This document shows, piece by piece, positions 14,311 through 61,378 of a stretch of DNA of 64,000 nucleotides. The notes beneath the pieces were generated by a model. It was not told where the DNA came from, did not search any database, and saw only the letters and a list, made by a program, of their open reading frames with translations. Made by a program: the position numbers and the translations under genes. Position 1 is the stretch's first letter. Every line of letters starts with the position of its first letter. This stretch comes from an uncultured Spirochaetales bacterium (GTDB taxonomy: Bacteria; Spirochaetota; Spirochaetia; Treponematales; JBGSOB01), in NCBI GenBank assembly GCA_964399285.1, contig CAYNQK010000002.1, positions 512 to 64,511 of the forward strand, given 5' to 3'.

Positions 14311-14317
14311 GCCGTCC

Positions 14318-28948: not shown

Positions 28949-29610
28949 GCCGCGTCGCCATCGAAGAACGCCGCGATGCCGGCCGGATCGTCGACGACCG
29001 ATACGCACCTCACGTCCGACACGCCAGTCCCGGGCTTGAATCCGAACCCGTACGTCACCGCCATGAAATCGATCCCGATCGATTGCGCGCTTTGGGCGTC
29101 AGAAAGAGTATCGCCGACGTAGATGACGCGATGCGGATCGCTTATCCCCATCTCCTTCATCGTGAGTCCGATGATGTCCTTCTTCCTGAGCTTGTTCTCG
29201 TTATCGGCGCCGTTTATCGACTCGCACAGGGCGCCGAAGCCGAAATGGTTCACGATCTCGACCGCGTAATCTGCCCGCTTGTAGGTGGCTATGCCGAGGC
29301 GCGATCCCGCCCTCTTGACGCTCCCCAGGGCCTCCATGATGCCCGCGTAAGGCTCCGCCTCTAGGAGATGCTCGCCTTTGTACCGTTTTCTGAAAATCTC
29401 GGCTGCCGCCTGCGCGTCCACCGCGTTCATGCCGTATTCCCTGGCGAATGACTCCTGTACCGGCGGGCCTATGAAGGTCATGAGCTTCTCCGGGCTCAGG
29501 GGAGGCAGGCGCATCTCCTCTATAGTATCCCTCACGGAAGCCGTGATGCCCGCGGTCGTGTCGAGGAGAGTCCCGTCAACGTCGAAAATGACGGAGTCGT
29601 ACTTCCTCAT
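28945..29610 (-). CDS. HAD-superfamily hydrolase (phosphoglycolate-phosphatase-like, subfamily IA)
   Basis: 221-aa ORF with motif I VIFDVDGTLLDT, motif II IATYK and motif IV YVGDTLSD. Confidence 0.8.
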   Translation of the reverse strand: MRKYDSVIFDVDGTLLDTTAGITASVRDTIEEMRLPPLSPEKLMTFIGPPVQESFAREYGMNAVDAQAAAEIFRKRYKGEHLLEAEPYAGIMEALGSVKRAGSRLGIATYKRADYAVEIVNHFGFGALCESINGADNENKLRKKDIIGLTMKEMGISDPHRVIYVGDTLSDAQSAQSIGIDFMAVTYGFGFKPGTGVSDVRCVSVVDDPAGIAAFFDGDAA

Positions 29611-31214
29611 GCGTTTCCTTTGCAGTAGGCGGAGGGAGTAATGAAATCCACCTTTATGCGGTCGCCGAGCCGCTGGAGCTCCGCCTTAACCGCGTCGTTC
29701 CGCTTCATCACGTCATCGTCGCAATACAGGTACTTTACGTAGTTCGAGCTGTAATCCGATCCTCCGCTGGAAGAATACCCGTCGAATCCCGCGACGGAAA
29801 CCCTGTCCTTTCCGACCTTGAGAAGGGCCTTGAGAAGCATCAGTGCCGGGTTGTCCCGCACGACTTTCTCCTCGCACATGAGGGACTTGAAATCGAGGAG
29901 ATAATCGATGCCTTCGCCCGCGTCGCCGATGTTGGACGTGCAAATGATTTTTTCCTTCCTCCCAGGCTCATGAATCCTATCGTAGAACTGGTTGTACCTC
30001 TTCGGATTCCCCATGAAGACGAAATCGACGTCGAATTCGTCGGGAACGAAATTTATGGAAAATACGAGAGGGCGCGCAGCCTTCAGGAATCGATCAATAT
30101 CATCCCGGTTCCTCTCGAGCGTCGCTCCCGGCGCGAGCACCAGGACTTCCCTACTGGCCACTTCCGTTCCGAGCCTCTCATAGGCGTCCCTGTCATCGAA
30201 GGAACGCTGCTGGAATTCCGCGGCGAGGCGCTCGATCAAGTCCTTCTTATACGCGAGGCGCTCCGGAACGGGGATCCTCTGGAGGATCGCGTTGATGGAC
30301 TTCACCGAGAAAGTCTTCCGCGAGATGAGGTCCTTGACGTAGTCCGGATGGCAATCGTTGAGGGCGGAAATGTAATGCTGGAGCGAATAACCCCAATACC
30401 GCTTCTCGTACTCCTTCATGATGTCCACGTCGATCGTCTCGAGCAGCTGGTCTATGTCGTAATGGCCGCCGTGAGCGCGGTTCATGTTCATGGCCAGGAG
30501 CTCGGTATTCGCGTTTCCGGCCCCCTTTCCCATACCGTACAGCGATCCGTCCAGCATGAGGACGCGGTTCGAGTCCGTTTTCGCGAGCTCAATGCAGTTT
30601 GAATAAGCGAGCTGAAAATTGTTGTGCGAATGGTACCCGATCATGGTTTCCGGGGACAGCGCCCCGTTCATCAGCTCGAAGAAGTGCATCATCTGTTCTT
30701 TATGCATGAGCCCGTACGTATCAACGACTGATACCGAGAACGGGTTTATCGATTCCAGCATTCCAAGCAAGGAGGCCATTTCCTCATCGGAGTAGCTCGT
30801 CACGGAGACCGGCTGCGCGAAGACGCGATATCCCCTGTCGCGGATTCCCGCGCAGAACTCCACGGCGGCCGTCATATCCTTCTTCTTGAAAATGACGCGT
30901 ATACCGTCGAAGATCGTCTCGGCGGCGGGCTGGACCCGCTCGATCGGACAGGTTCCGAAATCGATCATGCCGACGATCATCGAGTTTTTCTTGTCCACGT
31001 TCTTCATCACGGGATTGAAGGACGCGGGATCGGGCCTGATGCTGCGGTCGGGATCGTATTCCACGCGCGCGTCGATGAATCCGAGCTCAATCACGTCGAT
31101 GCCCGCCCTCGCGAGCCGCGATATCACGCTTTTAATGCTTCCGAGGCCGAAGTTCCAATCATTGACGAAACCGCCGTCGCGCAAAGTACAATCAAGGATT
31201 TTGATCGATTTCAT
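29607..31214 (-). CDS. DRE-TIM (HMGL-like) aldolase domain fused to a C-terminal domain of uncertain function (possibly DUF115/MptE-like)
   Basis: 535-aa ORF. The N terminus KILDCTLRDGGFVNDWNFG...IDVIELGF...HSHNNFQLAYSN is the pyruvate-carboxyltransferase/aldolase fold. The ~220-aa C-terminal part (VLVLAPGATL...VFSINFVPDEFDVDFVFMGNPKRY...VAGFDGY) is only tentatively assigned. Confidence 0.6.
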   Translation of the reverse strand: MKSIKILDCTLRDGGFVNDWNFGLGSIKSVISRLARAGIDVIELGFIDARVEYDPDRSIRPDPASFNPVMKNVDKKNSMIVGMIDFGTCPIERVQPAAETIFDGIRVIFKKKDMTAAVEFCAGIRDRGYRVFAQPVSVTSYSDEEMASLLGMLESINPFSVSVVDTYGLMHKEQMMHFFELMNGALSPETMIGYHSHNNFQLAYSNCIELAKTDSNRVLMLDGSLYGMGKGAGNANTELLAMNMNRAHGGHYDIDQLLETIDVDIMKEYEKRYWGYSLQHYISALNDCHPDYVKDLISRKTFSVKSINAILQRIPVPERLAYKKDLIERLAAEFQQRSFDDRDAYERLGTEVASREVLVLAPGATLERNRDDIDRFLKAARPLVFSINFVPDEFDVDFVFMGNPKRYNQFYDRIHEPGRKEKIICTSNIGDAGEGIDYLLDFKSLMCEEKVVRDNPALMLLKALLKVGKDRVSVAGFDGYSSSGGSDYSSNYVKYLYCDDDVMKRNDAVKAELQRLGDRIKVDFITPSAYCKGNA

Positions 31215-33010
31215 AGCCTTCCCTCCTTGTATTTGTTCGCGGAGTGCTCTTCCTCGGACAGGAAGGGATGCATCTCATCGAGCGGCGCCGATACCATCCT
31301 GCCGTCGGGGAGGAGCTTCGAGGCCGATTTCGGGGAGAACGGCTGAGCCTTGTCGACGAGCACCTCGCAAAGGACGGGCGTATCGTCCGCGAGCAGCCTC
31401 TCAGCGAGGCCGTCGGCCTCCGTCATATCCGCGACCCGCGCGTACGCGAGACCGTATGCCGTCGCCAATGCCTTGAAATCCGGGAATCCGAGCCCTGAAG
31501 CGGCGTCGATGCCGGCGTATCTTCCCATAAAGAAATTCCCCTGGGTCTGCCTGATAGAATGGTATCCTTCGTTATTGATCACGATGAGCTTGAGCGGAAG
31601 CCGGTTGCGCGCAACCGTGGCGAGCTCCTGTACGTTCATCTGGAGGCTTCCATCGCCCTCGATGCAGACGACCTTGCGCTCGCCGAGCGCCCTGCAGGCG
31701 CCGATAGCCGCCGGAAGGCCGTATCCCATGGAGGCGCAGCCGGAATTCGTGAAGATCCTCTGGCCCCGCTTAATCCGGGCTGTCTGGAACGGGATGACGC
31801 ATGCCGATCCGTTGGAGCACACGGTCGTCTGGCCTTCGGGGAGGTCTCCGAGGAAGCCATCGAAGAACGCGTAGGGATTCAATCGATCCGTTCTCGACGC
31901 CTCCGCCGCGGCAGGGTATTTACGGCTTATCTTCCTGCACCAATCGAGCCAGCCGGATCCGCTCCCGTACTCCTTCCGGTACCCGGCGGCGAGAACGGCC
32001 TTCATGAAAAGCCCGCAATCGGATATGACGGGCATGTCGACGCGGAAGGTCTTTTTCCGGGTCTCGGCCTCGTCTATGTCGACCATGACCTTGAAGGCGT
32101 TCGGCGCCACCTCGTCCCAGGCGTAGCCGATCTGCCGGAGATTCATCCTGCAACCGAGCACGAGAAGGAGGTCGCAGTCCTGGAATACGTAATTCCCTCC
32201 GCGCGTCCCGATCGTGCCGGGGCGTCCGGCGTAGAAAGGATCTTCGTCTTCCATGAGATCGTGCGAATTCCAGGCAGTCATCGCGGGGACATTCAAGGTC
32301 CTGGCGAATTCCGGAAAAAGCTCTGCGTTTCCCGACATCCTCACCCCGGAACCGCCGATGATCGCAGGCCGCTTCGAAGCGCGAAGACGCTCCAGGAAGG
32401 CGGCGACTTCGCTCGCGGACGGCGCCTTCGGTCCAGAAGGAACCGCTTCAGCGTCCGGGAGCGATGGCATGGCGTCGAGGTCGACCTGCGCCGCCTGGAC
32501 GTTGAGCGGAATGTCGATCCAGACGGGGCCGGGCCGGCCGGAACGCGCGATCGCCAGAGCGCGCTCGAGGCTCCTGCGGATTTCAAGGGGCTCCGTGACC
32601 ATCTCGGCCCGCTTCGTCATCGCCCGCACCGCGTCAACGATATTGAATTCCTGATCGCCGAGCTGACGCAGTCCCGATCCCGGCACGGAGGCGAGCGTGC
32701 ACTCGAATTTCACCTGTCCTGATATGACGAGCATCGGGATGAAGTCGAGCCAGGCCCCCAAAACCCCGGTCAGGGCGTTCGTGCCCCCCGGTCCCGTCGT
32801 GACGCAGACGGCTGGCATTCTGCCCGAGGCCTTGAAATACCCCTCGGCGGCTATGGCCGCCGCCTGCTCGTGATGGAAGTACGTGCACCGAAGCCGTTGA
32901 TGGCTACCGAAGGCGTCGTTGAGGTGCATGGCGCCGCCGCCCGTCACCGTGAAAATATCAGTGACGCCGTTCTCAACGAGAAAATCGGCGATGAAATCCG
33001 CGAGTCTCAT
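31211..33010 (-). CDS. Thiamine-diphosphate-dependent enzyme, acetolactate-synthase-like (YerE-like candidate)
   Basis: 599-aa ORF with a TPP_enzyme N domain (FTVTGGGAMHLNDA...VCVTTGPGGTNALTG), a central domain and a C-terminal TPP-binding GDGSLQMNVQEL...NNEGY motif. ATGA overlaps on both sides. Confidence 0.85.
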   Translation of the reverse strand: MRLADFIADFLVENGVTDIFTVTGGGAMHLNDAFGSHQRLRCTYFHHEQAAAIAAEGYFKASGRMPAVCVTTGPGGTNALTGVLGAWLDFIPMLVISGQVKFECTLASVPGSGLRQLGDQEFNIVDAVRAMTKRAEMVTEPLEIRRSLERALAIARSGRPGPVWIDIPLNVQAAQVDLDAMPSLPDAEAVPSGPKAPSASEVAAFLERLRASKRPAIIGGSGVRMSGNAELFPEFARTLNVPAMTAWNSHDLMEDEDPFYAGRPGTIGTRGGNYVFQDCDLLLVLGCRMNLRQIGYAWDEVAPNAFKVMVDIDEAETRKKTFRVDMPVISDCGLFMKAVLAAGYRKEYGSGSGWLDWCRKISRKYPAAAEASRTDRLNPYAFFDGFLGDLPEGQTTVCSNGSACVIPFQTARIKRGQRIFTNSGCASMGYGLPAAIGACRALGERKVVCIEGDGSLQMNVQELATVARNRLPLKLIVINNEGYHSIRQTQGNFFMGRYAGIDAASGLGFPDFKALATAYGLAYARVADMTEADGLAERLLADDTPVLCEVLVDKAQPFSPKSASKLLPDGRMVSAPLDEMHPFLSEEEHSANKYKEGRL

Positions 33011-34071
33011 TCTTTCTCCCGCGCAGCGACGCGTTCCGCGCCGTTCCCGCGCTCATCCTTGTGATAATCCCTCGTTCGCGCGATCGCCTCGGACAGGGAC
33101 CTATTTCTTATTTCAGGGAGTTCCGTCTCGATCTTCGAGATATCTGGCAGGTAATCCTGGTTCCTGTCCGTCGGCCTCGACTGCCCGAGGACTTCGACGG
33201 GAACCGCTCCGAACGCGTTCGACACCGCGCCGCCGAGCTCGGCGATGGAGACGGCTTCCCCGGAACCGACGTTGTACGCCTCTCCGGGCTTCCCGTCGAT
33301 CAAGAGAAACAACAGCGCCTTCGCCATATCCGCGGCGTACTGGTAGCTCCTCCTCGGCTTTCCGTCGCCGTTGATCCTGATCGCCTTGCCGTCGAGCCCG
33401 TCGCGGATGAAATTCCCGATGGCGAAATGCGCGTCGAGCGGCAAGTACGGGCCGACGAAGGCGAAGCAACGAGCGATGACGGCATCGCAGCCGTTCTTCT
33501 TAGCGGCGCATACGGTATAGAGTTCGGCGAGGCGCTTCGCGACGCCGTAAGCCTGCGCCGGATCTAGCGAAGACGGAGCGCCCTCGTAATCCTCGCAGAA
33601 TGCTCTTAAGCCCGTCGGCGGCTTCCCGTACACGGCGCCTGAGCTGATGAAGAGCGATCTCTCGGCGTTCACAGCGCAAACACGCCGCGCGCCATCCACG
33701 ATGGTGTCCATCATGAGGAGCGGCGCCTCGGCGTTGAGCGCCGCGCTCGCTTCCGTGGCGCCGTTCACGACGAGGTCCGCCTCTATTCCAGCGGGATCGA
33801 AAGTCCTGACGTCGCCCTTGATGAATTCTACGTCGCCGAGCGAGGCGATCTCGGGCCGCTTCCGCTTGAAGGCTTCGGGATCGCGGCTCAAGAGGGTCAA
33901 CCGCATTCCGAGCCGCGCTTCCCGATTGGCCCACAGCAAGGCCCCCGTGAGCCAAGAGCCGATGAAGCCCGTGCCCCCGGTCATGAAGACGCGCTTTCCG
34001 CGGAACGCGTCCGAGCGCCCTTCGAGGGAGGTTAAGATATCCTGGAAGTCCTCTCGCAGGATCCGGTTCAT
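33007..34071 (-). CDS. NAD(P)-dependent epimerase/dehydratase-family SDR (candidate sugar keto-reductase, YerF-like)
   Basis: Start at the ATG at 34071 (ATGA overlap). Rossmann motif VFMTGGTGFIGSWL and catalytic YGVAK (YxxxK). Confidence 0.75.
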   Translation of the reverse strand: MNRILREDFQDILTSLEGRSDAFRGKRVFMTGGTGFIGSWLTGALLWANREARLGMRLTLLSRDPEAFKRKRPEIASLGDVEFIKGDVRTFDPAGIEADLVVNGATEASAALNAEAPLLMMDTIVDGARRVCAVNAERSLFISSGAVYGKPPTGLRAFCEDYEGAPSSLDPAQAYGVAKRLAELYTVCAAKKNGCDAVIARCFAFVGPYLPLDAHFAIGNFIRDGLDGKAIRINGDGKPRRSYQYAADMAKALLFLLIDGKPGEAYNVGSGEAVSIAELGGAVSNAFGAVPVEVLGQSRPTDRNQDYLPDISKIETELPEIRNRSLSEAIARTRDYHKDERGNGAERVAAREKE

Positions 34072-35150
34072 TCCTTTTCTCCGGCCTCCGCGTACTCGCC
34101 GATCTGCCTCGCGCATACGCTCGCGGGAGGCTCTCCGGACAACCGCGCTTTTTCCCAAGCGACGCTCTTCTCGAGGGCGGTGGCGAGGTCCCATCGAGGC
34201 TTCCAGCCGATCCGCGACCTGATCTTCGAGCAATCGAGCTTGAGGTAATTCGCCTCGTGCGGGTGGGGTCCCTTATCGATCTCGTATTCCGCGTTTTCGC
34301 CCCAGAGGTCCTTGAGCCTCTGTACGATCCATCCGACGGGCCTCGCGTCCTCGTCGTTCGGTCCTACGTTCCACCCCTCGGCGCAGTCGTTGCTCCCGTA
34401 CAAGCGCTCCGCGAGCTCGATATACGCGGAGAGCGGCTCGAGGACGTGCTGCCAGGGGCGCGTCGACTCGGGATTCCTGATCCGGACCTTCTCGCCCTTT
34501 CCGAAGGCCCTGAGGCAATCGGGCACGAGGCGGTCCGGGGCCCAATCCCCTCCGCCGATCACGTTCCCCGCCCGGGCCGTCGCTATGGCGGCATGGTGGC
34601 TCTGCCCGTACTCCGCGACGTTGAAGAATGAATTGCGATAGGACGCGGCGACGATCTCGGCGCAGGCCTTGGACGCGGAATACGGATCGTATCCCCCGAA
34701 GGCCTCGTCCTCGCGGTACCCCCAGGGCCATTCCCTGTTTTCATAGACCTTATCCGTCGTGATCACGAGAATCGACCGCAGCTCGGGGCAGGAACGCGCG
34801 GCTTCGAGGACGTTCGCCGTGCCGATGACGTTCGTCTGGTACGTGCCGAGCGGATCCTTGTAGGATTCGCGCACTATGGGCTGCGCGGCGAGATGCATGA
34901 GGACGTCCGGCTTGAAGGCCTTCATCGAGGTCCTGAGCGCGTTCAAGTCGCGGATGTCGCCGATCGCATGTTCCATGCGGCGGTCCAGGCCGAGCAGGAC
35001 GAAAAGACTCGGATCCGTCGCGGGACCGAGGGAATATCCGCGGATCTCCGCCCCCATGGAGAGCAGCCATTCGCAGAGCCAGCTCCCCTTGAATCCGGTA
35101 TGCCCCGTCACGAAGACGCGCTTTCGGCGCCAGAACGCCGCGCCTTTCAT
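34068..35150 (-). CDS. rfbG: CDP-glucose 4,6-dehydratase
   Basis: Start at the ATG at 35150 (ATGA overlap). [27 protein letters not shown] and YSASKACAE are hallmarks of RfbG/DdhB. It is adjacent to rfbF. Confidence 0.9.
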
Positions 35151-35923
35151 TTCCAAGCCCTCCAGGGCGCCTTGCCCTCGGCCCAGAGCCGTTCGAGCTC
35201 CTGTTTGTCGCGGAGCGTGTCCATGGGCCGCCAGAATCCCTCGTGCCGGTAGGCGCCGAGTTGCCCGTCGCGCGCGAGGCCCTCGAGCGGGCCGCGCTCC
35301 CACACCGTCATGTCGCCGTCATTGATATAGTCGAAGACTCCGGGTTCGCAGACGAAGAATCCCGCATTGATCCAAGCGCCCTCGCCCGCGGGCTTCTCCT
35401 TAAAGGACACGACCGCGCTGTTCGCCGCCATGTCGATCGCCCCGAATCGTCCATGCGGCTGGACGGCGGTCAGGGTGGCGAGCCGCTTCGATTCCTCATG
35501 GAACCTGAGGAGGGCCGGGATATCGACGTCTCCGACCCCGTCCCCGTACGTGAGCATGAAAGGTCCGCCGTCGACGTATTCGCGGATCCTCGCGATCCTG
35601 CCGCCCGTCATCGTATCGAGCCCCGTGTCTACGAGGGTGACGCGCCACGGATCCGCGTGCTTGTGATGGACCTCCATCTCGTTATTGGCCATGTCGAAGG
35701 TTACGTCCGCCATGTGCAGGAAGTAGTTGGCGAAGTATTCCTTGATGACGTAGCCCTTATAACCGCAACAGATCACGAAGTCGTCGAATCCATGGCTCGA
35801 GTAAATCTTCATGATGTGCCAGAGGATCGGTTTACCGCCGATCTCCACCATCGGCTTGGGCCGGAGTTCAGTCTCTTCGGACAAGCGCGTACCGTATCCG
35901 CCGGCGAGAATAACAACTTTCAT
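35147..35923 (-). CDS. rfbF: Glucose-1-phosphate cytidylyltransferase
   Basis: 258-aa [67 protein letters not shown] matches RfbF/DdhA throughout. Confidence 0.92.
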
Positions 35924-37224
35924 AGAATCCTCCTATGCGGATCGGTTTCAAATATCTGTTCTACCGACTTTTTCAGAAGGGTGAAAAGGATCATAAAAGT
36001 CATGATTGCCAAATTGATCGGAACGTTGATGCTAAGGCCGCCGATTATTATTACGTAATCTTTGGGTATGAATAATAAACCATAACATATCGAGTAAATC
36101 ATAATCACTCTTTTTCCTAGATCACCTGTATCATAGATGAACATGAAAAACGGTATAAGGAAGCATATTAATTTGTAATCGTAGGACACATAAGGGAAAA
36201 GCACGAGGATGCTTACGAGGACTTGGGCAATTTCGAATGTTCGCAAGTCTTTCTTCACAAAAATAACGATGCATATGGCCAGAAAGAGAACAATCACTAT
36301 AGCCGCGTACGGTTTGGACATCGCAAGCTCTATCGCCCTTGAAGGCACGTAGCCCGGAGCCGATTTTCCTAGAATCCCGAGATAGGAAAGAACGATAAGC
36401 TTGATTACGCCGAACAATGTAGGGCTGTACTGGATTCCGTTGACATCGAACGACCTACCAAAAAATTTTCTGAACTCATGGAGCATGGAAAGAATATTAT
36501 TGATGACTCCTCCCTTGAAAGCGAGGAGTGGCAGGATGAAAAACGCGACGCATAATCCTAAGGCGAGTAATATTAATTTTACTTTTTTGTCTTTCACCAG
36601 GATAAGGATGAAAATGCCTGGGTAGATCTTCATTGATATTGCTATACTCAGGCAGATCACGCTAAGGATATGCCGATCCGTATAATAAAAATAGAAAAAA
36701 GCACCGACAAACAGGAATAAGTAAATCTCGATATTTCCCCTGTCGATGGAAAAAAGCAAGGGGTAAGCACAGCAGGCGATAACGAGAATGGAGAGGGCCT
36801 TTTCTTTATTGGCGAAGCATAACGACCCTATAAATAACGCGTAAACAACAAGGAAAATCCCTAAAAAAAGCGATAATGACAAATATTTACTCGGGATGAC
36901 GGAAAAAAACCAAAATAATAAATTCGGCAATGGCAGATAGTTGCTTTGAAAGAAATGGTTTGAGTTGTAAGGGGACCGGTCACCAGAAATCCCGTACATA
37001 TTTGAAAAGTCCCGAAAACAATTATCCGGCCGGAAAAGGAACGTGCTAAAAGGATACCCGAGGCCGAAGTACGAAGCCAACGCATAATGGAATGCCACTG
37101 CGCAAAAAAAACCGCAGAACACTATGATGGCGGTGACATTGAGCGCCTCTGCCCTGAGCATGGGTATTCCGAGAAGCCTTCGCACATCCGCTCTTTGGTT
37201 CCAGAGCGTGTTCTGACCTTCCAT
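35920..37224 (-). CDS. AT-rich polytopic membrane protein, putative repeat-unit polymerase (Wzy-like) or GT-C glycosyltransferase
   Basis: 434-aa ORF with about 10-12 TM segments and a Phe/Ile/Leu/Tyr-rich composition. It sits between rfbH and rfbF with TAA-ATG abutment upstream and an ATGA overlap downstream. I recognise no soluble domain. Confidence 0.5.
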
Positions 37225-38565
37225 TTAGCTTTTCCATCCCATCTTCAGGAACTCGCCGATCGCTGAAAGCGCGTATACAATGCGCGCCTCATCCAATCCC
37301 GGGAACGCCCCCAAAAAGAAGGTATCGTTCATAGCGATGTCCGTGTTCGGGAGGCCGCCGGGCGCCATGCGGTGCGCGATGCCCTCGTACGCCGGCTGCC
37401 TCAGGATGTTCCCCGCGAAAAGGTTCCTCGTCTCCACGCGATGCGCGTTCAGGTAGTCCGTGAGCTCGGTCCTCGTGAACCCGGCATCGGGCTTGACGGT
37501 GACGGGATACGCGAACCAGGAGGGGTCGGATTTCGCCGTCGCTCGGGGCAGTATGAAATACCGCTCGTACTGCCCGAAACCTTCGGTCCATCGCTTGAAG
37601 TTCTCCTTGCGCCGCGCGATGAATTCCGGAAGCTTCTTCATCTGCTCCACTCCGATCGCGGCCTGGATGTCCGTGACCTTGAGGTTGTACCCGATGTGGG
37701 AGTACACGTACTTGTGGTCGTAGCCCGCGGGGAGCGTCCCGTACCGTCCGGTGAAGCGCTTGCCGCAGGTATTGCTCTCCCCGCCCGAGCAGTAGCAATC
37801 GCGTCCCCAGTCGCGGATTGACCGGGCCGCTCGCGCGAGAATCTCGTCGTTCGTGAAGACGCAGCCTCCCTCGCCCATGGTGATGTGGTGAGCGGGATAG
37901 AAGGAACAGGTGGCGATGTGCCCGAAAGTGCCGACCTTCCTGCCCGCGTACGTCGATCCCAGGGCGTCGCAGCAATCTTCCACGAGCCAGAGCCCCTTCT
38001 CCTCGACGACCTCCATGACCGCGTCGAGGTCGTAGGGATTCCCGAGGGTATGCGCGAGGAAGACGGCCTTCGTCTTCGGCCCGATCGCCTTCCTGAGCTG
38101 TTCGACGTTGACGTTGTACGTGCCGATATCGATATCGACGAAAACCGGGACCATGCCGTTCTGGATGACGGGATTGACCGTGGTCGGGAAGCCGGCCGCC
38201 ACGGAAATCACCTCATCGCCCGGCTTCAAGGCCTTTTCGCCGAGGAGCGGGGAGGTCAAGGCGCTGAAAGCGACGAGATTCGCGGAGGACCCCGAGTTCA
38301 CGAGGAAGGCGAACTCGCTCTCGACGAAGTCCGCGAACGCGCCCTCGAATTCCTCGGAGAACCTGCCCGAGGTGAGCCAGAAATCCAGGCACGCGTCCAC
38401 GCCGGCCTGAAGCTCCTTCTCGTCGAAGACCCTTCCCGCGTAACGGACCATGTCCTTTTCCGCGTCGAAGGCCTTCACCGGGAATTTGACCCGATAATAT
38501 TCCGCCACGAGCGAGGCGATTTCTTCCCTGAGCCGTTTCTCATCCTTCACGTTCGTCACTCCCAT
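37225..38565 (-). CDS. rfbH: CDP-6-deoxy-L-threo-D-glycero-4-hexulose-3-dehydrase (E1, PMP-dependent)
   Basis: 446-aa DegT/DnrJ-fold protein. The E1-specific FYPAHHITMGEGG has His in place of the PLP lysine. The Cys-rich DWGRDCYCSGGESNTCGKRF segment is the Fe-S site. Confidence 0.9.
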   Translation of the reverse strand: MGVTNVKDEKRLREEIASLVAEYYRVKFPVKAFDAEKDMVRYAGRVFDEKELQAGVDACLDFWLTSGRFSEEFEGAFADFVESEFAFLVNSGSSANLVAFSALTSPLLGEKALKPGDEVISVAAGFPTTVNPVIQNGMVPVFVDIDIGTYNVNVEQLRKAIGPKTKAVFLAHTLGNPYDLDAVMEVVEEKGLWLVEDCCDALGSTYAGRKVGTFGHIATCSFYPAHHITMGEGGCVFTNDEILARAARSIRDWGRDCYCSGGESNTCGKRFTGRYGTLPAGYDHKYVYSHIGYNLKVTDIQAAIGVEQMKKLPEFIARRKENFKRWTEGFGQYERYFILPRATAKSDPSWFAYPVTVKPDAGFTRTELTDYLNAHRVETRNLFAGNILRQPAYEGIAHRMAPGGLPNTDIAMNDTFFLGAFPGLDEARIVYALSAIGEFLKMGWKS

Positions 38566-39281
38566 TCGTCGATTCTCACGTTTTCCGGCTTCACGCCGCA
38601 GGCGACCAGTCCGCCCTTGAACGCCTTGATCATGGCGGGGGGGCCGGAGAGAAAATAAAGCGGATCTTCCAAGTCGGCGGTCTCGTCCCGTATCGAACGG
38701 ATATCCAGCATGCCGCCGCGCATCCCGGCGCTTCTCTCGGGATCCTCCACGAAGAGGCTATATGTGAAATCCTTGCAAGAAGAGCCGCATCCGCGGATTT
38801 CGTCCAAGAAGAGCAGCTGATCTTCCTTCCTGGCTCCGTAATACAGCCTCACGGGAGCGGCGGCGCTTCCGAGCCCGGCGATCTCCTCAATGAACGGAAC
38901 GTAGGGCGAAACCCCCGTCCCGCCCGCTACGAGAACCACGCCCCGTCCGGCGTTCAAATCGATATGGAATTCCCCGTAAGGCAGTTTCAGCCATACGGTT
39001 TTCCCGACATCGAGCTCGGCCTCCATCCTGCGCGTATACGCGCCCTTCACGCTGTATACGATCGCGATCTCGTCGGCGCCGTAGCGCGACGCGATAGAGA
39101 AAACGCGCGATTCGGGCCAGAAGCCCCCGGCCGGATCGTAGTCCTCGAGGGTCATATGCAGGAATTGGCCGGACTTGAACCGCGGCACGCGCCCCTCGGG
39201 CTTGAGGCCGATTTCATACACTCCCTCGCCGTGGGGATCGATGCGGGACACCGCCGCTCGAAGCTTAACGGGATTGGCCAT
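38556..39281 (-). CDS. FNR-like FAD/NAD(P)H oxidoreductase (E3-like reductase lacking the ferredoxin domain)
   Basis: Start at the ATG at 39281. FAD motif RVFSIAS and NAD motif VLVAGGTGVSP. No N-terminal CxxxxCxxC 2Fe-2S domain. It lies directly upstream of rfbH with a 10-nt overlap. Confidence 0.7.
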   Translation of the reverse strand: MANPVKLRAAVSRIDPHGEGVYEIGLKPEGRVPRFKSGQFLHMTLEDYDPAGGFWPESRVFSIASRYGADEIAIVYSVKGAYTRRMEAELDVGKTVWLKLPYGEFHIDLNAGRGVVLVAGGTGVSPYVPFIEEIAGLGSAAAPVRLYYGARKEDQLLFLDEIRGCGSSCKDFTYSLFVEDPERSAGMRGGMLDIRSIRDETADLEDPLYFLSGPPAMIKAFKGGLVACGVKPENVRIDEWE

Positions 39282-40995
39282 CGCGCCATCCTTTCCCACC
39301 GAGCGCGCCCATCGCCTCATCGAACACGATCGCGCGGTCGAGGCTGGTTCCTTGATACGGAATACTCTTCATCAATTCGCCCTTGAGCAGGATCTCGCCC
39401 CCGGTCTCGAGCGCGATTCCCGCACCGCAGAGAGTCGCCATGGTAGGGGCCACGTCGACCAAGGATACGGCCTTCGCGCCAATGATCGCTGAACCCGGAG
39501 CTATGCCTTCTCCGAGGATGAACAAAGGAACATACCTCACGATATTCTGCCCGATGCGAATTTGAGAGCTCCGGTAAACCGGCTTCTCTATGAACGCCGG
39601 ATGATCCCCGTAAATGCAGACGATCGCGTCAGGAGCGATCTTCCTCAGCTCTTCGACGAAAACCCCGAGGCAGCCGTCGACGTAGGCCAGTGACCCGAAA
39701 TACGAGTCGACGAACGCGTCTCCCGTCCGTATCCCTCCCGCCGCCCGGACCTCGGGAGGGAGGAGATCGAAGGGATTGTGCGATGACATCGTGATGATAT
39801 AAGCGAGGAAGGGCCCCGTCGAAGCCCGCATCTTCTCGAGGGCGAAGGAGAAGGTGTCCTTATCCTCGGAACCCCACTTATACGTGCCCCCGCCGATATC
39901 CTTCTTGTCGTAGAACGCGTCGAATCCCATTCGCCTGTATACGCGATTCCTCGAGTAGAAAGTGCCGCTATTGCCGTGAAAAGCCATCGTCGAATAGCCC
40001 GCGCGCTTCAGCGCCGCGGCCAGGGAATTCGGATAATCGTGGTTCGGCGGCATCGGCCCGTCGGGAACGAATGAATTTATGACGCAGATTTCGCTATTGA
40101 GGGTTCCCGCTCCGGTATTGACGACCATCACCGGCGCGTAGAAGCCCTCATCGGCCGCGGAATCGAGGAACGGCGTCACGGGCTTGCCGCCTACCCGCGA
40201 CCCTCTCAGGCCCGAATCGAGCGACTCGACCTGGATGAACACCAAGCTCCTGGGCTTCGCGGCCGATTCCGTCTCATACCGGTCCAGGCCGGCATAATAA
40301 TCCTTTTGGCCGGGATTGAAGAGGACTCCGTGGAAGAACTGTATGAAAAGATTGGCGGCCGCGCCGTATTTGAGTACCGAGGAGTAATAATAGGGATCCC
40401 CGTACCTCAGCAAATGGCATATCGACACTCGCTTGGTCGCGTTATACGCCTCGGCGCTCAATAAGCCCGCGCATGACGCGATGACTACCGCCCGTCGAGC
40501 TACGATCGCCGGCTTCCATCGCAATCCATGGAACCACTCCTTGATTCGGCCCGACAGGAGGAACGCCGCGACGGACAAAGGAACCTCGAGGAGATGGGAG
40601 AATATCCTCCGAGTCGCCTCTCCGGTCCACTTATACATCCCCGACGCTATCATTCCTTCGAGGAAAAACGTTTTCACGATGTCGACGGTTATGAAATCCG
40701 CGAAGTGGGCGAAATAGAGGGCCGAAGCCACGCTCCAAACGGACCTCGCTCCTTGAAGAGCGAGAAGGATCCATGCGGGGCATTTTTTCATGAGCAGCAC
40801 GCGCGCGCACAACACCGCGCCGAGGGCGGTGTACGCGACCTTATACAGGACGTTCCTCGGATTCAAGAAGCCCGTGAACCAAAAGCCCGTCATGGAGATG
40901 TTAAAGATTATGAGGAGCAGATAGACTCCGGCGATCGTTAAGCCGAAGACCGGCGGCCCGTGCGGCCCGGCCTTTTCCGCGCCCTTCGCTTCCAT
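39265..40995 (-). CDS. LTA-synthase/sulfatase-family membrane transferase (phosphoglycerol or phosphoethanolamine transferase-like)
   Basis: Five or so N-terminal TMs precede an alkaline-phosphatase-superfamily domain (LVFIQVESLDSGL, MAFHGNSGTFYSRNRVY, ITMSSHNPF, IYGDH). I prefer the ATG at 40995, 1 nt past the fcl stop. The ATG at 41061 is an alternative. Confidence 0.75.
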   Translation of the reverse strand: MEAKGAEKAGPHGPPVFGLTIAGVYLLLIIFNISMTGFWFTGFLNPRNVLYKVAYTALGAVLCARVLLMKKCPAWILLALQGARSVWSVASALYFAHFADFITVDIVKTFFLEGMIASGMYKWTGEATRRIFSHLLEVPLSVAAFLLSGRIKEWFHGLRWKPAIVARRAVVIASCAGLLSAEAYNATKRVSICHLLRYGDPYYYSSVLKYGAAANLFIQFFHGVLFNPGQKDYYAGLDRYETESAAKPRSLVFIQVESLDSGLRGSRVGGKPVTPFLDSAADEGFYAPVMVVNTGAGTLNSEICVINSFVPDGPMPPNHDYPNSLAAALKRAGYSTMAFHGNSGTFYSRNRVYRRMGFDAFYDKKDIGGGTYKWGSEDKDTFSFALEKMRASTGPFLAYIITMSSHNPFDLLPPEVRAAGGIRTGDAFVDSYFGSLAYVDGCLGVFVEELRKIAPDAIVCIYGDHPAFIEKPVYRSSQIRIGQNIVRYVPLFILGEGIAPGSAIIGAKAVSLVDVAPTMATLCGAGIALETGGEILLKGELMKSIPYQGTSLDRAIVFDEAMGALGGKGWRDGQSR

Positions 40996-40996
40996 C

Positions 40997-41950
40997 TTAT
41001 GCCCGCCCGCCGCTCCCGAACCTCTCGAGGAAATCCGCATACGCGATCGGAATCCCCTCATCGAGCCCGACGAGCGGCTTCCATCCGAGAGCGGCGAGCC
41101 TCGATGAGTCCATGAGCTTCCGGGGCGTACCGTTCGGCTTGCTCGCGTCCCAGACGATTCTTCCCGTGAAGCCGATCACCTTGGCGACTTTCGCCGCCAG
41201 CTCCGCTATGGTGAGTTCGCTCTGCGACCCCACGTTGATGAAATCGCCCGTATCCGCGTAGGAAGCCTTCTCCATGAGAAAAACGATCGCGCGGGCGAGG
41301 TCGTCGGAAAAGAGGAATTCCCGGTAGGGGGTTCCGTCCCCCCAGAGAGTCGCGTCGGTCCCCGCGGCCTTGGCCTCGTGGATTTTGCGGATCATCGCCG
41401 GCAGGACGTGGCTCCCCGTCGGGTGATAGTTGTCGCCGGGGCCGTACATGTTGGTGGGCATGGCGCTTAAGAATTCGGCCCCGTACTGCTCGTGGTAATG
41501 CTTGCAGAGCCTGAGCGCCGCGATCTTCGCCACCGCGTACGCCTCGTTCGTCGGCTCGAGCGGTCCCGTGAGGAGGTACTCCTCCTTGAGCGGTTGGGGC
41601 GCCATCTTCGGATATATGCACGAGGAACCGAGGTTGAGGAGCTTCTTCACGCCGTACCGGTACGCGGAATTGATGACGTTGGATGCTATCATGATGTTGT
41701 CGTAGAGGAACTCGGCGGGGAAGGAGGAATTCGCCGCGATGCCGCCCACCTTGGCCGCGGCGAGAATGACGTACTCGGGGCGCTCGCTCTCGAAGAAGGC
41801 CTCGGCGTCGGCCTGGCGGCGGAGGTCGAGCTCCTTGATGCCCCTCGTCACGATGTTCGCGTAGCCCGCGGCGCGCAACGCCCGGAAGATGGCCGAGCCG
41901 ACGAGGCCGTCGTGCCCGGCGAGGTATATCTTCGAATTCCTTTCTATCAC
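40997..41950 (-). CDS. fcl: GDP-L-fucose synthase (GDP-4-keto-6-deoxymannose 3,5-epimerase/4-reductase)
   Basis: 317-aa ORF with a GTG start and GAGGGG 4 nt upstream. IYLAGHDGLVGSAI, LGSSCIYP and YAVAKIA are typical Fcl/WcaG motifs. It is adjacent to gmd. Confidence 0.92.
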   Translation of the reverse strand: MIERNSKIYLAGHDGLVGSAIFRALRAAGYANIVTRGIKELDLRRQADAEAFFESERPEYVILAAAKVGGIAANSSFPAEFLYDNIMIASNVINSAYRYGVKKLLNLGSSCIYPKMAPQPLKEEYLLTGPLEPTNEAYAVAKIAALRLCKHYHEQYGAEFLSAMPTNMYGPGDNYHPTGSHVLPAMIRKIHEAKAAGTDATLWGDGTPYREFLFSDDLARAIVFLMEKASYADTGDFINVGSQSELTIAELAAKVAKVIGFTGRIVWDASKPNGTPRKLMDSSRLAALGWKPLVGLDEGIPIAYADFLERFGSGGRA

Positions 41951-41957: not shown

Positions 41958-43043
41958 TCACTCGAACCTGTTGCGCGTCTCGAAGCCGCCGTCCCGGAGG
42001 TGGACCTCGCGCTCCGCGTCCTTCAGGTCCGCTTCGACCATCATCTTGACGAGGCCCGCGAGGTCGACGCGGGGCTTCCATCCCAGCTCGCGCATCGCCT
42101 TGGAGGGATCTCCGATGAGGAGATCCACCTCGGTGGGCCGGAAGTAGCGCGGATCGACCTCCACGACGGTTTTTCCGGTCTTCTTGTCCAGGCCCTTCTC
42201 GTCGACGCCCGCGCCCTTCCACTCGAGCTCGATGCCCGCTTCCCGGAAGGCCATCCCGGTGAAATCGCGCACGGTCGTCGTGACGCCGGTGGCCATCACG
42301 TAGTCGCCGGGCTTTTCCTGCTGGAGCATGAGCCACATGAGCTCGACGTAATCGCCCGCGAAGCCCCAGTCCCGCTTGGCGCCGAGGTTGCCGATGAAGA
42401 GCTTTTCCTGGAGACCGTTCCTGATGCGGGCCGCGGCCCTCGTTATCTTCCTCGTCACGAAGGTCTCGCCGCGGCGAGGGCTCTCGTGGTTGAAGAGGAT
42501 GCCGTTGTTCGCGTGGATCCCGTAGGCCTCGCGGTAATTGACCGTGATCCAGTAAGCGTAGAGCTTGGCGCAGGCGTAGGGGCTCCTCGGATAGAAGGGC
42601 GTCGTCTCCTTCTGGGGCACCTCCTGGACGAGGCCGAAGAGCTCCGACGTGGAGGCTTGGTAGAACCGCGCTTTCTTCTCCAGGCCCAGGATCCTGATGG
42701 CTTCGAGGATGCGGAGCGTTCCGATCCCGTCCACGTCCGCGGTGTACTCCGGCTCCTCGAAGGAGACCTGGACGTGGCTCTGCGCCCCGAGGTTGTAGAT
42801 CTCGTCGGGCTGGATCTTCTTGATCAGCCGGATAATGGCGCTGGATTCGGAGAGATCGCCGTAGTGGAGGAAGAATCTGGCTCCTGAATCGTGGGGATCC
42901 TCGTAAATATGGTCTACCCGGTCGGTGTTGAAGGAAGACGCGCGGCGCTTGATGCCATGGACTTCATACCCTTTGGCGAGGAGGAATTCCGCGAGGTAGG
43001 AACCATCCTGTCCGGTGATGCCTGAAATAAGCGCTTTCTTCAT
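41958..43043 (-). CDS. gmd: GDP-mannose 4,6-dehydratase
   Basis: Start at the ATG at 43043 ([22 protein letters not shown]). Near-complete match to the conserved Gmd sequence ([35 protein letters not shown]). Confidence 0.95.
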
Positions 43044-43233
43044 AATCCGACGCCTCTCTGGATCATGCCTCTCTCCCATACACCGCCGCGTTGGGGCGGA
43101 TTCTCTATATTCGTCGGATTCTCCTATAAAGCTTTCTATTTCTTTATATCAGATGTATTGCGCATAAGTCTTTCTCCGGGCTCGCCATATTCCGTGCAAT
43201 CTTCGTATTCCCATGCATCGAAGGCAAGCCCAG

Positions 43234-43279
43234 ATGTTCAGTTATTGAACATTATAGCACGCGGTTTATTGGGTATCAA
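43234..43279 (-). promoter_or_regulatory. Promoter of the 25-gene glycan operon (TTGATA-17-TATAAT) with an overlapping TGTTCA-N5-TGAACA operator
   Basis: The minus strand reads cTCTATTGATAcccaataaaccgcgtgcTATAATGTTCAATAACTGAACATctg. The -35 box is at 43274-43279, the -10 box at 43251-43256 and the palindrome at 43234-43252. This lies about 200 nt upstream of the gmd ATG, in an AT-rich gap. Confidence 0.7.
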
Positions 43280-59611: not shown

Positions 59612-59617
59612 GCCGGA

Positions 59618-60613: not shown

Positions 60614-60781
60614 GCTACGCTCCCTGGCGGGCGTCGCCCGCGCGCGAGGCGCTCCGAGCGCCCCGCGGCCCGGCGTTTCCCGCCGCGGCCGGCCGTACGC
60701 CGGCTCCTGACGGGGGGTTCCGCGCCGGTCCGCCGGATTCCCGATGCGCCCGGGCGGCGCGAACGCCAACGCCAACGCCCG

Positions 60782-61330: not shown

Positions 61331-61378
61331 AGTGTTCAACCATTGAACACTATATCACGAACGTGCTTCCTCCACAAG
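61329..61378 (-). promoter_or_regulatory. Promoter of the wHTH regulator operon (TTGTGG-17-TATAGT) with an overlapping 11-bp-arm palindrome containing TGTTCA-N5-TGAACA
   Basis: The minus strand reads ccTTGTGGaggaagcacgttcgtgaTATAGTGTTCAATGGTTGAACACTATGgac. The palindrome ATAGTGTTCAA-TGG-TTGAACACTAT spans 61329-61353. It covers the -10 box and runs into the ATG. Confidence 0.65.

What the first reader, a model, noticed from the sequence alone, without database searches (positions are those of the whole stretch)
43234..43279. Near-consensus promoter of the 29-kb glycan operon carries a TGTTCA-N5-TGAACA palindrome fused to its -10 box
**Seen in the sequence**
- The minus strand of the AT-rich gap between uvrC and gmd reads TTGATA-17 nt-TATAAT, followed immediately by GTTCAATAACTGAACA.
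- The palindrome ATGTTCA-ATAAC-TGAACAT therefore overlaps the -10 box and the expected transcription start, which is the classic geometry of a repressor operator.
- The same arrangement recurs 18 kb away in front of the wHTH regulator gene (61329-61378).
- Aligned from the -10 box, TATAATGTTCAATAACTGAACAT and TATAGTGTTCAATGGTTGAACAC are identical at 18 of 23 positions.
- A 12-nt specified core is expected only about once per 1.7e7 positions under uniform composition.
- I saw no third copy by eye, but that was not an exhaustive search.

**Inference**
- Both transcription units appear to form one regulon.
- The unit that encodes the regulator also supplies ManC (GDP-mannose for Gmd/Fcl) and the initiating WecA-like transferase.
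Basis: partly seen in the sequence, partly recalled or inferred. Interest (0 to 1): 0.78.

Follow-up and report, generated by a model that had tools for sequence, protein, structure and literature searches.

The report
Conserved repressor operator on glycan-operon promoters
Two promoters in this spirochaete genome carry the same 17-bp palindrome on top of their -10 box, and comparison with hundreds of other bacteria indicates it is the docking site of a small MarR-like regulator that switches off its own gene and a large cell-surface sugar operon.

Summary
TGTTCA-N5-TGAACA occurs exactly twice in 64 kb (none in 100 shuffles). Each copy is fused to the last T of a -10 box: the gmd promoter (TTGATA-17-TGcTATAAT, 11 of 12 consensus) and the promoter of the wHTH gene, whose ATG follows 2 nt later.

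- All seven independent spirochaete lineages of the wHTH protein (43-86% identity) keep promoter and palindrome while flanks and spacer diverge.
- The sister species keeps the site before gmd in an otherwise unrelated intergenic region.
- A metagenome scan for the motif found a wHTH-family gene directly downstream in 67 of 120 loci.
- Other adjacent genes there are mostly sugar-nucleotide or glycan genes, including another gmd.

The short (~100 aa) relatives are NCBIfam TIGR04176, "MarR family EPS-associated transcriptional regulator". The window protein is a longer relative below that model's cut-off, with an extra C-terminal alpha/beta domain of unknown fold.

Plasmid-borne TIGR04176 genes of cultured Rhodobacterales carry GTTCA-N4-TGAAC instead.

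Most likely mechanism: a dimeric autorepressor occluding -10 and +1. I found no published operator for this family. Binding, transcription start and ligand remain untested.

The parts
43274..43279 (-). -35 hexamer TTGATA of the gmd-operon promoter
   Evidence: 17-nt spacer to the -10 box, 11 of 12 consensus matches.
43251..43259 (-). Extended -10 element, TGc + TATAAT
   Evidence: The last T (43251) is also the first base of the palindrome.
43235..43251 (.). Operator 1: TGTTCA-ATAAC-TGAACA (as read on the minus strand), overlapping the -10 box and the expected +1
   Evidence: An orthologous site is kept in the sister species (L134). A strain variant in run X4 differs at 5 listed flanking positions between 43273 and 43343 and at none within the hexamers or the palindrome.
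43044..43234 (-). gmd leader of about 190-200 nt; no Rfam family, no ops-like element
   Evidence: The sister species has an unrelated 47-nt leader.
41958..43043 (-). gmd (GDP-mannose 4,6-dehydratase, 361 aa), first gene of the array
13609..41950 (-). Co-directional glycan gene array with no gap above 10 nt. In order: fcl-like, sulfatase-like transferase, NAD_binding_1 reductase, DegT, GT87-like membrane protein (GC 0.40), NTP transferase, two SDRs, TPP enzyme, HMGL-like, HAD, GT10/GT2, MatE-like flippase, GT2, GT4, Wzy_C, GT4, unknown, two FtsX, LolA-like, unknown, CxxCxxCC
   Evidence: A single transcript is inferred from the spacing only.
61372..61377 (-). -35 hexamer TTGTGG of the wHTH promoter, lying inside the last codons (L-V-E) of the upstream gene
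   Evidence: TTGTAG and TTGTCG sit at the same place in L002 and L003.
61349..61357 (-). Extended -10 element, TGA + TATAGT. The TGA is also the stop codon of the upstream gene (61358-62278)
61333..61349 (.). Operator 2: TGTTCA-ATGGT-TGAACA (as read on the minus strand), ending 2 nt before the ATG of the regulator gene
   Evidence: Arms are kept and the spacer varies in L002, L003, L008, L011, L142 and L143.
60782..61330 (-). wHTH regulator, 182 aa: MarR-like winged helix (residues 3-67), a 38-residue helix (69-106) and a small alpha/beta domain (111-181)
57021..60775 (-). Rest of the regulator's unit: SDR epimerase-like (59618-60775), ManC-type GDP-mannose pyrophosphorylase (58547-59611), Glycos_transf_4 WecA/MraY-family transferase (57021-58550)
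   Evidence: Gaps between the genes are 6, 6 and -4 nt.

Best explanation
The 17-bp palindrome TGTTCA-N5-TGAACA is the operator of the 182-aa winged-helix protein encoded at 60782-61330.

That protein is a long-form relative of the MarR family EPS-associated regulators (TIGR04176).

Proposed mechanism:
- A dimer places its two recognition helices in successive major grooves. The half-site centres are 11 bp apart.
- The left half-site shares its first base with the last T of the -10 hexamer, and the site covers the expected start point. Bound protein and sigma-70-type RNA polymerase should therefore exclude each other.
- The protein would then repress its own four-gene unit (wHTH, SDR, ManC, WecA-like transferase). 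That unit is translated from a 10-15-nt leader without a Shine-Dalgarno sequence.
- It would equally repress the strong promoter of the gmd-led glycan array.
- An unknown signal, possibly sensed by the C-terminal alpha/beta domain, would release it.

Shown here:
- the sequences and their non-random occurrence;
- the conservation of both sites;
- the cross-lineage coupling of the motif to the protein family and to glycan genes.

Inferred, not shown:
- binding;
- the dimeric state;
- the start site;
- repression rather than activation;
- the ligand;
- the extent of the operon.
For: 1. Non-random occurrence. Two exact copies in 64 kb against 0 in 100 shuffles, with only the N5 spacing present.

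2. Promoter quality. 11 of 12 consensus, a 17-nt spacer and a TG extension suggest no activator is needed.

3. Phylogenetic footprint at the regulator gene.
- Seven spirochaete lineages found by protein similarity keep -35, 17 nt, TGn, TATAnT and GTTCA-N5-TGAACA.
- These are the window, L002 (86%), L003 (65%), L008 (54%), L011 (51%), L143 (46%) and L142 (43%).
- Their spacers and flanks differ.
- The arms are invariant rather than covarying.

4. Footprint at gmd.
- The sister species (Gmd 88% identical, same sample as the 86% wHTH locus) has TTGTAG-17-TATCAT-GTTCAATGTCTGAACA 47 nt before gmd.
- Its intergenic region is otherwise unrelated.

5. Motif-first test.
- In 67 of 120 metagenome loci matching TATANTGTTCA-N5-TGAACA, a wHTH-family gene is the first ORF downstream of a palindrome.
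- The -35 element, which the search pattern did not impose, is enriched: T at -28 in 51 of 72 sites and T at -27 in 58 of 72.

6. Start-codon position.
- In 44 of 72 unique sites the start codon lies inside the right half-site (aTGAACA = Met-Asn, 16 loci) or at most 5 nt after it.
- This forces the start site to lie between the -10 box and the ATG.

7. Regulon content elsewhere.
- Gmd (L059, 67% identical), NeuB in 4 loci, Polysacc_synt_2 in 3, UDP-glucose dehydrogenase in 3, DegT in 2.
- Also GT2, an epimerase, an AsnB-like amidotransferase, a CBS-NTP transferase and HMGL-like genes.

8. Check in cultured bacteria, ascertained by protein rather than motif.
- 9 of 9 plasmid-borne TIGR04176 genes have GTTCA-N4-TGAAC (Rhodobacterales) or GTTCA-N5-TAAAC (Aliarcobacter).
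- These lie 57-118 nt upstream of the gene, next to gmd, wecB, PGM and glycosyltransferase genes.
- Spacing therefore tracks the protein lineage.

9. Fold. The model (pLDDT 88) has a wHTH domain matching MarR-type repressors such as MepR and HcaR.
Against: - There is no binding, footprint or expression data. No RNA run holds this sequence.
- The metagenome scan imposed the -10 box and exact arms, so invariance within that set is partly by construction. Only the protein-ascertained sets are unbiased.
- Autoregulatory placement is the usual guide for pairing a regulator with a motif, but it does not prove which protein binds.
- The sigma-70-like promoter reading is assumed for this spirochaete.
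- The window protein scores below the TIGR04176 cut-off (49.4 against 88 bits).
- More distant Treponema gmd genes sit inside clusters without the palindrome.
- The C-terminal domain has no significant structural match (best E 0.12), so no ligand can be proposed.
Confidence: 0.72

Rival explanations
1. The wHTH protein binds the palindrome but acts as an activator or a dual regulator rather than as a repressor. Examples would be remodelling the promoter or counteracting a silencer, as some MarR/SlyA-type proteins do.
For: - The sign of regulation was not tested.
- Some MarR-family regulators of polysaccharide genes are activators (ExpG/WggR of Sinorhizobium, from my own knowledge).
- The regulator is co-transcribed with ManC and the initiating transferase. 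A positive loop would therefore be coherent.
Against: - The site covers -7 to about +10 of a near-consensus, TG-extended promoter with optimal spacing. That is the position of steric repression.
- In 20 of 72 unique wHTH-upstream sites (all with short-form genes) a second palindrome fills the -35/-10 spacer. This is hard to reconcile with activation.
Confidence: 0.13
2. The palindrome is bound by another, unidentified regulator. The wHTH gene would merely be one of its targets, together with the glycan genes.
For: - No binding data exist.
- 53 of the 120 motif-ascertained loci show no wHTH gene next to the site.
Against: - 16 of those 53 loci have the site within 330 nt of a contig end. Most of the others are glycan-gene promoters expected for regulon members.
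- The motif accompanies the family across spirochaetes, low-GC marine bacteria, Rhodobacterales and Campylobacterota.
- The spacing shifts (N5 to N4) together with the protein lineage.
- No other regulator gene is a constant neighbour.
Confidence: 0.08
3. The inverted repeat works as a nucleic-acid hairpin rather than as a protein site. It could be a 5' stem-loop, a translational occluder just before the AUG on read-through transcripts, or a terminator of the upstream gene.
For: - The wHTH promoter lies inside the 3' end of a conserved upstream gene. Read-through RNA would then carry a 7-8-bp stem ending 1-2 nt before the AUG.
- The base flanking each arm is complementary in the sites compared by eye (A..T, G..C, T..A).
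Against: - The predicted stems are weak and not better than shuffles (z -0.7 and -0.8).
- No U-tract follows the repeat.
- The arms are invariant in sequence across lineages, with no compensatory changes.
- The left arm is half inside the -10 box. In many loci the start codon lies inside the right arm, so promoter-derived RNA cannot contain the whole stem.
Confidence: 0.04
4. The match is coincidental: two AT-rich promoter regions happen to share a palindrome.
For: Both sites lie in AT-rich promoter DNA, where such words are more likely than in the 65-70% GC bulk of the window.
Against: - 0 of 100 shuffles give even one match.
- The expectation is 0.0007 per window.
- Both sites are conserved in relatives.
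Confidence: 0.01

Closest known systems
NCBIfam TIGR04176, 'MarR family EPS-associated transcriptional regulator'
   Same: - The wHTH domain is homologous (E 3.7e-13).
- Both lie at the head of sugar-nucleotide or polysaccharide gene clusters.
- True members (about 100 aa, 134 bits) carry the same GTTCA-N5-TGAAC operator fused to their -10 box. This holds in low-GC marine contigs, with N4 spacing in Rhodobacterales plasmids.
   Different: - The window protein scores 49 bits against a cut-off of 88.
- It is 182 aa, with an added 38-residue helix continuation and a C-terminal alpha/beta domain.
- The family is defined by genome context only. I found no paper on its operator or function.
Canonical MarR-type repressors (MarR, MepR, HcaR)
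   Same: - The winged-helix fold is shared (Foldseek E 6e-4 to 1e-3).
- The inferred logic is shared: a dimer on a 16-20-bp palindrome overlapping the core promoter of its own operon, i.e. autorepression.
   Different: - Canonical MarR proteins dimerise through N- and C-terminal helices that flank the wHTH and bind small phenolic ligands there.
- This protein has the wHTH at the N-terminus, then one long helix and a separate alpha/beta domain.
- Its Pfam MarR scores are below the gathering threshold (22.0 against 24.6).
ExpG/WggR of Sinorhizobium meliloti (MarR-type regulator within an exopolysaccharide cluster; from my own knowledge, not checked here)
   Same: It is a MarR-family protein encoded inside a polysaccharide cluster that binds conserved palindromes in several promoters of that cluster.
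   Different: - ExpG is described as an activator.
- No sequence relationship or operator similarity was tested here.
RfaH/ops and UpxY-type NusG paralogues (the other known dedicated control of long glycan operons; ops sequence quoted from memory)
   Same: - Both are dedicated control elements placed at the 5' end of long polysaccharide operons.
- In Rhodobacterales plasmids the MarR_EPS leader also carries an ops-like GCGGTAGC, with RfaH/NusG-family genes next door.
   Different: - They act on elongation, not initiation.
- The window has no NusG/RfaH paralogue and no ops-like element in either leader.

Membership tests
MarR-like winged-helix transcription factors (broad sense) | Winged helix-turn-helix DNA-binding fold | tested here: met
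   - The AlphaFold model (pLDDT 88) shows H-H-H-beta-beta at residues 3-67.
- Foldseek top hits are MarR-type regulators (HcaR, MepR), E 6e-4 to 1e-3.
- Pfam HTH_24 scores 23.4 bits against a cut-off of 21.9.
MarR-like winged-helix transcription factors (broad sense) | Pfam MarR (PF01047) or MarR_2 (PF12802) score above the gathering threshold | tested here: not met
   The scores are 22.0 against 24.6 bits and 22.7 against 27 bits.
MarR-like winged-helix transcription factors (broad sense) | Binds a palindromic operator overlapping the promoter of its own transcription unit | tested here: inconclusive
   The site exists, is conserved and is correctly placed. Binding itself cannot be tested with these tools.
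MarR-like winged-helix transcription factors (broad sense) | Ligand- or signal-dependent release from DNA | not testable with these tools
   The C-terminal alpha/beta domain has no significant PDB match (best E 0.12), so no ligand can be inferred.
NCBIfam TIGR04176 MarR_EPS (equivalog) | Whole-protein score at or above the curated cut-off of 88 bits | tested here: not met
   The window protein scores 49.4 bits. Short forms from the metagenome loci score 134 bits.
NCBIfam TIGR04176 MarR_EPS (equivalog) | Single-domain protein of about 100-120 aa (profile length 105) | tested here: not met
   The protein has 182 aa and an extra C-terminal domain. Long forms make up 1412 clusters at 50% identity with E <= 1e-3.
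NCBIfam TIGR04176 MarR_EPS (equivalog) | Located in or at the head of an exopolysaccharide or sugar-nucleotide gene cluster | tested here: met
   - In the window it is followed by SDR, ManC and a WecA-like transferase.
- Relatives are followed by rmlABCD, PGM/ManC/UGDH, DHQS-like/UGDH/Wzi, or PAPS genes.
Sigma-70-type promoter | -35 and -10 hexamers with 16-18-nt spacing | tested here: met
   - gmd promoter: TTGATA-17-TATAAT, 11 of 12, with a TG extension.
- wHTH promoter: TTGTGG-17-TGA-TATAGT.
Sigma-70-type promoter | Transcription starts 6-8 nt downstream of the -10 hexamer | not testable with these tools
   - No RNA runs hold the sequence.
- Indirect support: in relatives the start codon lies 10-22 nt after the -10 box.

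The most novel reading that the evidence does not exclude
One almost invariant module gates surface-glycan gene islands in very distant bacteria.
- The module is -35, 17 nt, TATAnT fused to GTTCA-N5-TGAAC, with the regulator's start codon inside or just after the right half-site, giving a leaderless or near-leaderless mRNA.
- It is found in anaerobic-digester spirochaetes and in very abundant low-GC marine bacteria.
- The uncharacterised MarR_EPS proteins and their long-form relatives would be its dedicated repressors.
- Operator spacing (N5 against N4) and operator number (one or two) would track the protein lineage.
- The long forms would add a previously undescribed sensor domain.
Probability: 0.45. 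Interest if true: 0.7.

Novelty: new member of a known kind. Interest (0 to 1): 0.6.

Why it matters
Surface glycans decide phage sensitivity, grazing resistance, immune recognition and aggregation, yet little appears to be known about how spirochaetes and most uncultured marine bacteria control these long operons.

- This work assigns a concrete DNA site and a testable mechanism to a regulator family that so far has only a context-based name. The short form alone has at least 8000 clusters at 90% identity.
- The operator can serve as a sequence tag to find the promoters of glycan islands and to predict regulons in metagenome-assembled genomes.
- Members exist in culturable bacteria, so the prediction can be tested directly. 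Examples are Gracilinema caldarium for the long form and Sulfitobacter or Roseivivax plasmids and Aliarcobacter for the short form.
- For this window, it explains how precursor supply (ManC), initiation (WecA-like transferase) and the 29-kb assembly array could be switched together.

Tried and rejected
- **RNA evidence for the start sites.** No RNA run holds the window. Only low-coverage DNA or unknown-type contigs exist, and none spans site 2. A marine locus could not be submitted.
- **Further copies in the window.** There are none at up to 2 mismatches or at other spacings.
- **Everted repeat TGAACATGCCCATGTTCA at 63851.** It is produced by the coding sequence for the peptide NMGMF. It is not kept in the sister species.
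- **RNA element in the gmd leader.** Rfam gives no match. There is no ops-like GCGGTAGC and no GTTTCGGCYGC motif.
- **SOS or LexA box for uvrC.** Rejected on geometry. The site lies downstream of the uvrC stop codon and co-directional with it. In the sister species another gene separates the two.
- **Hairpin function.** The stems are weak and show no covariation.
- **C-terminal domain.** There is no Pfam, PDB-sequence or Foldseek match. My initial idea of a Rex-like or CoA-binding Rossmann sensor is not supported.
- **Literature.** Five full-text searches for the family name, TIGR04176, the motif in several notations and related terms found nothing relevant. Subscription journals are not covered.
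- **Long form on plasmids.** There is no match in PLSDB.
- **More distant Treponema gmd loci.** Their gmd genes lie inside clusters and carry no palindrome.

Full report
**1. The observation**

At the gmd promoter the minus strand reads as follows:
- -35 TTGATA at 43279-43274;
- a 17-nt spacer ending in TGc;
- -10 TATAAT at 43256-43251;
- GTTCAATAACTGAACA at 43250-43235.

The palindrome TGTTCA-N5-TGAACA therefore shares its first T with the last base of the -10 box. The consensus scan scores this promoter 11 of 12 with a TG extension. It is one of only two promoter-like hits in 7 kb.

At the second site the minus strand reads TTGTGG-17-TGA-TATAGT-GTTCAATGGTTGAACA-CT-ATG. That ATG (61330) opens the wHTH gene.

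Several tests argue against chance:
- The pattern has exactly two matches at 0-1 mismatch and none in 100 dinucleotide shuffles.
- No further copy appears at up to 2 mismatches.
- No copy exists at spacings 0-12 other than 5.
- The composition-based expectation is 0.0007 per window.

One annotation changes: gmd most likely starts at 43043, because homologues are 361 aa and the sequence there reads [14 protein letters not shown] behind GAGAGG. The leader is then about 200 nt.

**2. The surroundings**

The window comes from a Spirochaetales/Treponematales genome of 65-70% GC found in anaerobic digesters.

uvrC (43364-45178) lies upstream of the promoter and runs in the same direction. The site is therefore not a uvrC control element.

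Downstream of the promoter the genes run without any gap above 10 nt from 43043 to 13609. In order they are:
- gmd, fcl-like, a sulfatase-like transferase, a NAD_binding_1 reductase and DegT;
- a low-GC GT87-like membrane protein, an NTP transferase and two SDRs;
- a TPP enzyme, an HMGL-like protein and a HAD hydrolase;
- a GT10/GT2 fusion, a MatE-like flippase, GT2, GT4, Wzy_C and GT4;
- an unknown gene, two FtsX permeases, a LolA-like protein, another unknown gene and a CxxCxxCC protein.

This is a Wzx/Wzy-type surface-glycan cluster with fucose and dideoxy or branched sugar branches. That it forms a single 29-kb transcript is plausible but rests on spacing alone.

The regulator's unit is wHTH, SDR, ManC and a Glycos_transf_4 (WecA/MraY family) protein. 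Its promoter lies inside the last codons of a conserved upstream gene, which is 51% identical in the sister species. That gene's TGA stop codon doubles as the TGn of the extended -10 element.

**3. The protein**

The 182-aa product has weak Pfam HTH_24 and MarR hits and no PDB relative by sequence.

An AlphaFold model (pLDDT 88) shows three parts:
- an N-terminal winged helix (residues 3-67);
- a 38-residue helix (69-106);
- a small four-stranded alpha/beta domain (111-181).

Foldseek matches only the winged helix, to MarR-type repressors such as MepR and HcaR. The C-terminal domain, modelled alone, has no significant match, with a best E of 0.12.

NCBIfam relates the wHTH to TIGR04176, "MarR family EPS-associated transcriptional regulator". 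The score is 49 bits, below the cut-off of 88.

An exhaustive search of cluster representatives finds 1412 long-form clusters at E <= 1e-3 and 420 at E <= 1e-10. The listed close homologues are named Spirochaetes or Treponema.

**4. Conservation of the two sites**

Loci of the regulator were fetched by protein similarity and are therefore unbiased with respect to the DNA motif. All keep a -35, a 17-nt spacer with TGn, a TATAnT-like -10 and TGTTCA-N5-TGAACA, while the N5 spacer and the flanks differ. The lineages are L002/L004 (86%), L003 (65%), L008 (54%), L011 (51%), L143 (46%) and L142 (43%).

For gmd, the sister species has a Gmd 88% identical to the window's. It comes from the same JGI sample as the 86% wHTH locus. 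It carries TTGTAG-17-TATCAT-GTTCAATGTCTGAACA 47 nt before gmd. Its intergenic region is otherwise unrelated and even holds an extra gene.

More distant Treponema gmd genes (78% identical) sit inside clusters and have no palindrome.

A strain variant in a digester metagenome (run X4) differs at 5 listed positions between 43273 and 43343. None falls within the hexamers or the palindrome.

**5. A motif-first test**

The metagenome collection was scanned for TATANTGTTCA-N5-TGAACA.

- An iterative profile search on the first ORF downstream of each palindrome shows a wHTH-family gene in 67 of the 120 loci. Of the other 53, 16 have the site within 330 nt of a contig end.
- Two size classes appear. 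Forms of about 100 aa are true TIGR04176 members (134 bits). Forms of 170-210 aa carry a C-terminal domain.
- In an alignment of 72 unique regulator-upstream sites, the -35 element was not imposed by the search yet is enriched: T at -28 in 51 sites and T at -27 in 58.
- In 20 sites, all with short-form genes, a second GTTCA-N5-TGAAC lies exactly 23 bp upstream, inside the -35/-10 spacer.
- The start codon lies inside the right half-site in 16 sites (aTGAACA = Met-Asn). It lies 0-5 nt after the palindrome in 28 more.

The start-codon positions pin the transcription start between the -10 box and the ATG. They imply leaderless or near-leaderless regulator mRNAs.

**6. Regulon content elsewhere**

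Genes next to palindromes that are not the regulator are mostly sugar-nucleotide or glycan genes:
- Gmd, NeuB (4 loci), Polysacc_synt_2 (3), UDP-glucose dehydrogenase (3), DegT (2) and Gfo/Idh/MocA (3);
- a CBS-NTP transferase, an HMGL-like protein, an AsnB-like amidotransferase, GT2 and an epimerase.

L059 has a Gmd 67% identical to the window's, directly behind cTTTACA-17-TATAGT-GTTCAATGTTTGAACA.

A marine short-form locus fetched by protein (L140/L141) sits in a glycan island. It has the double operator plus a further site before an HMGL-like gene.

**7. Cultured bacteria**

A tblastn search of the short form against PLSDB gives 20 plasmids. They come from Sulfitobacter, Roseivivax, Marivivens, Loktanella, Pacificitalea, Aestuarium, Limimaricola and Aliarcobacter. 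All hits are annotated as MarR family EPS-associated regulators.

In the regions inspected, most of these genes lie next to gmd, wecB, PGM, DegT or glycosyltransferase genes. The Aliarcobacter copy lies next to tet(H).

All nine inspected have a related palindrome 57-118 nt upstream of the gene:
- cGTTCA-N4-TGAACg in Rhodobacterales (6 exact, 2 with one mismatch);
- GTTCA-N5-TAAAC in Aliarcobacter.

The core half-site is therefore family-wide, and the spacing varies with lineage. This is the pattern expected if the family's own members bind the site.

**8. Mechanism**

The best reading is a dimeric autorepressor whose operator overlaps -10 and +1. It would compete with RNA polymerase at two intrinsically strong promoters. 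It would thereby couple precursor supply and initiation (ManC, WecA-like transferase) to the assembly array led by gmd.

The rivals are ranked lower, for these reasons:
- An activator role fits poorly with the site's position and with the spacer operators seen in relatives.
- A different binding protein is unlikely given the cross-phylum coupling of the motif to this family.
- A hairpin role is unlikely because the stems are weak, the arms do not covary, and promoter-derived RNA cannot contain the whole stem.
- Chance is excluded by the conservation data.

The signal and the role of the C-terminal domain are unknown.

**9. Novelty**

The kind of system, a MarR-like autorepressor with a palindromic operator, is classical. 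The family has a context-based name.

I found no paper describing its operator, regulon or mechanism. The library searched lacks most subscription journals.

I therefore file this as a new member of a known kind. The wider conservation of the promoter-operator-start-codon module is the most interesting and still partly open aspect.

Noticed in passing
metagenome loci, e.g. L031:993, L083:1517, L054:2299, L045:1297, L104:2342: In 16 of 72 unique sites the regulator's start codon lies inside the right half-site (aTGAACA read as Met-Asn-Thr/Asn/Lys). The operator therefore also encodes the N-terminus 'MN..', and the mRNA must be leaderless or have a leader of at most 4 nt.
   Followed up: partly
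low-GC marine loci, e.g. L122:5948-5987, L025, L056, L140:9962-10001: Short-form (TIGR04176) genes often have two operators 23 bp apart. One fills the -35/-10 spacer (cTTTAC-n-GTTCA-N5-TGAAC) and one lies over -10 and +1. The window's two promoters have only the latter.
   Followed up: partly
L144, L147-L152 (Rhodobacterales plasmids), 15-35 nt before the MarR_EPS start codon: Seven of eight leaders carry (G/A)TGCGGTAGCC, which resembles the RfaH ops element (GGCGGTAGCGTG, quoted from memory). RfaH/NusG-family genes are divergent neighbours in L147 and L149. The regulator gene thus appears to be the first gene of RfaH-dependent operons there.
   Followed up: partly
L008 (~9850), L142 (~9900), L143 (~9000): Three spirochaete lineages with long regulator leaders share GTTTCGGCYGC about 30-40 nt after the palindrome. 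L011 and L142 also have a NusG paralogue about 7 kb upstream. The window has neither the motif nor a NusG paralogue.
   Followed up: partly
window 63851-63868: There is a perfect everted repeat, TGAACATG-CC-CATGTTCA, inside the phosphoribosyltransferase gene. It results from coding for F-V-N-M-G-M-F and is degraded in the sister species (TCAACATGGGCATGTTCG). I do not consider it an operator.
   Followed up: yes
window 57021-57464: The WecA-like gene (57021-58550, minus) and the MGDG-synthase-like ORF (55017-57464, plus) converge and overlap by 444 nt. This is unusually long and may reflect a frameshift or assembly error, or an over-extended ORF in high-GC DNA.
   Followed up: no
window 35920-37224: A GT87-like membrane-protein gene has a GC of about 0.40 inside a cluster of about 0.60-0.65 GC. 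This is typical of a horizontally acquired polymerase or transferase in O-antigen-like clusters.
   Followed up: no
window 28945-33010; also L029, L049, L052, L140:7231: The cluster holds a TPP enzyme, an HMGL-like protein and a HAD hydrolase in a row, which may make a branched or acylated sugar. HMGL-like genes 23-28% identical to the window's are recurrently the gene next to an operator in marine loci.
   Followed up: no
window 61355-61377: The wHTH promoter is embedded in the 3' end of a conserved gene of unknown function (61358-62278, no Pfam hit, 51% identical in the sister species). The -35 element lies in its L-V-E codons, and its TGA stop codon is the TGn of the extended -10 element.
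   Followed up: partly
window 43261-43377 (run X6): A 4-kb contig of a bioreactor metagenome joins the uvrC end directly to the -10/palindrome segment, skipping 115 nt. It then diverges downstream of 43228. A related organism thus keeps the core promoter and operator in a shorter intergenic region.
   Followed up: no
L145 (Aliarcobacter butzleri plasmid p63_DSM_105472): Here the MarR_EPS gene sits directly upstream of a predicted tet(H) tetracycline efflux gene rather than glycan genes. This context is unusual for the family.
   Followed up: no
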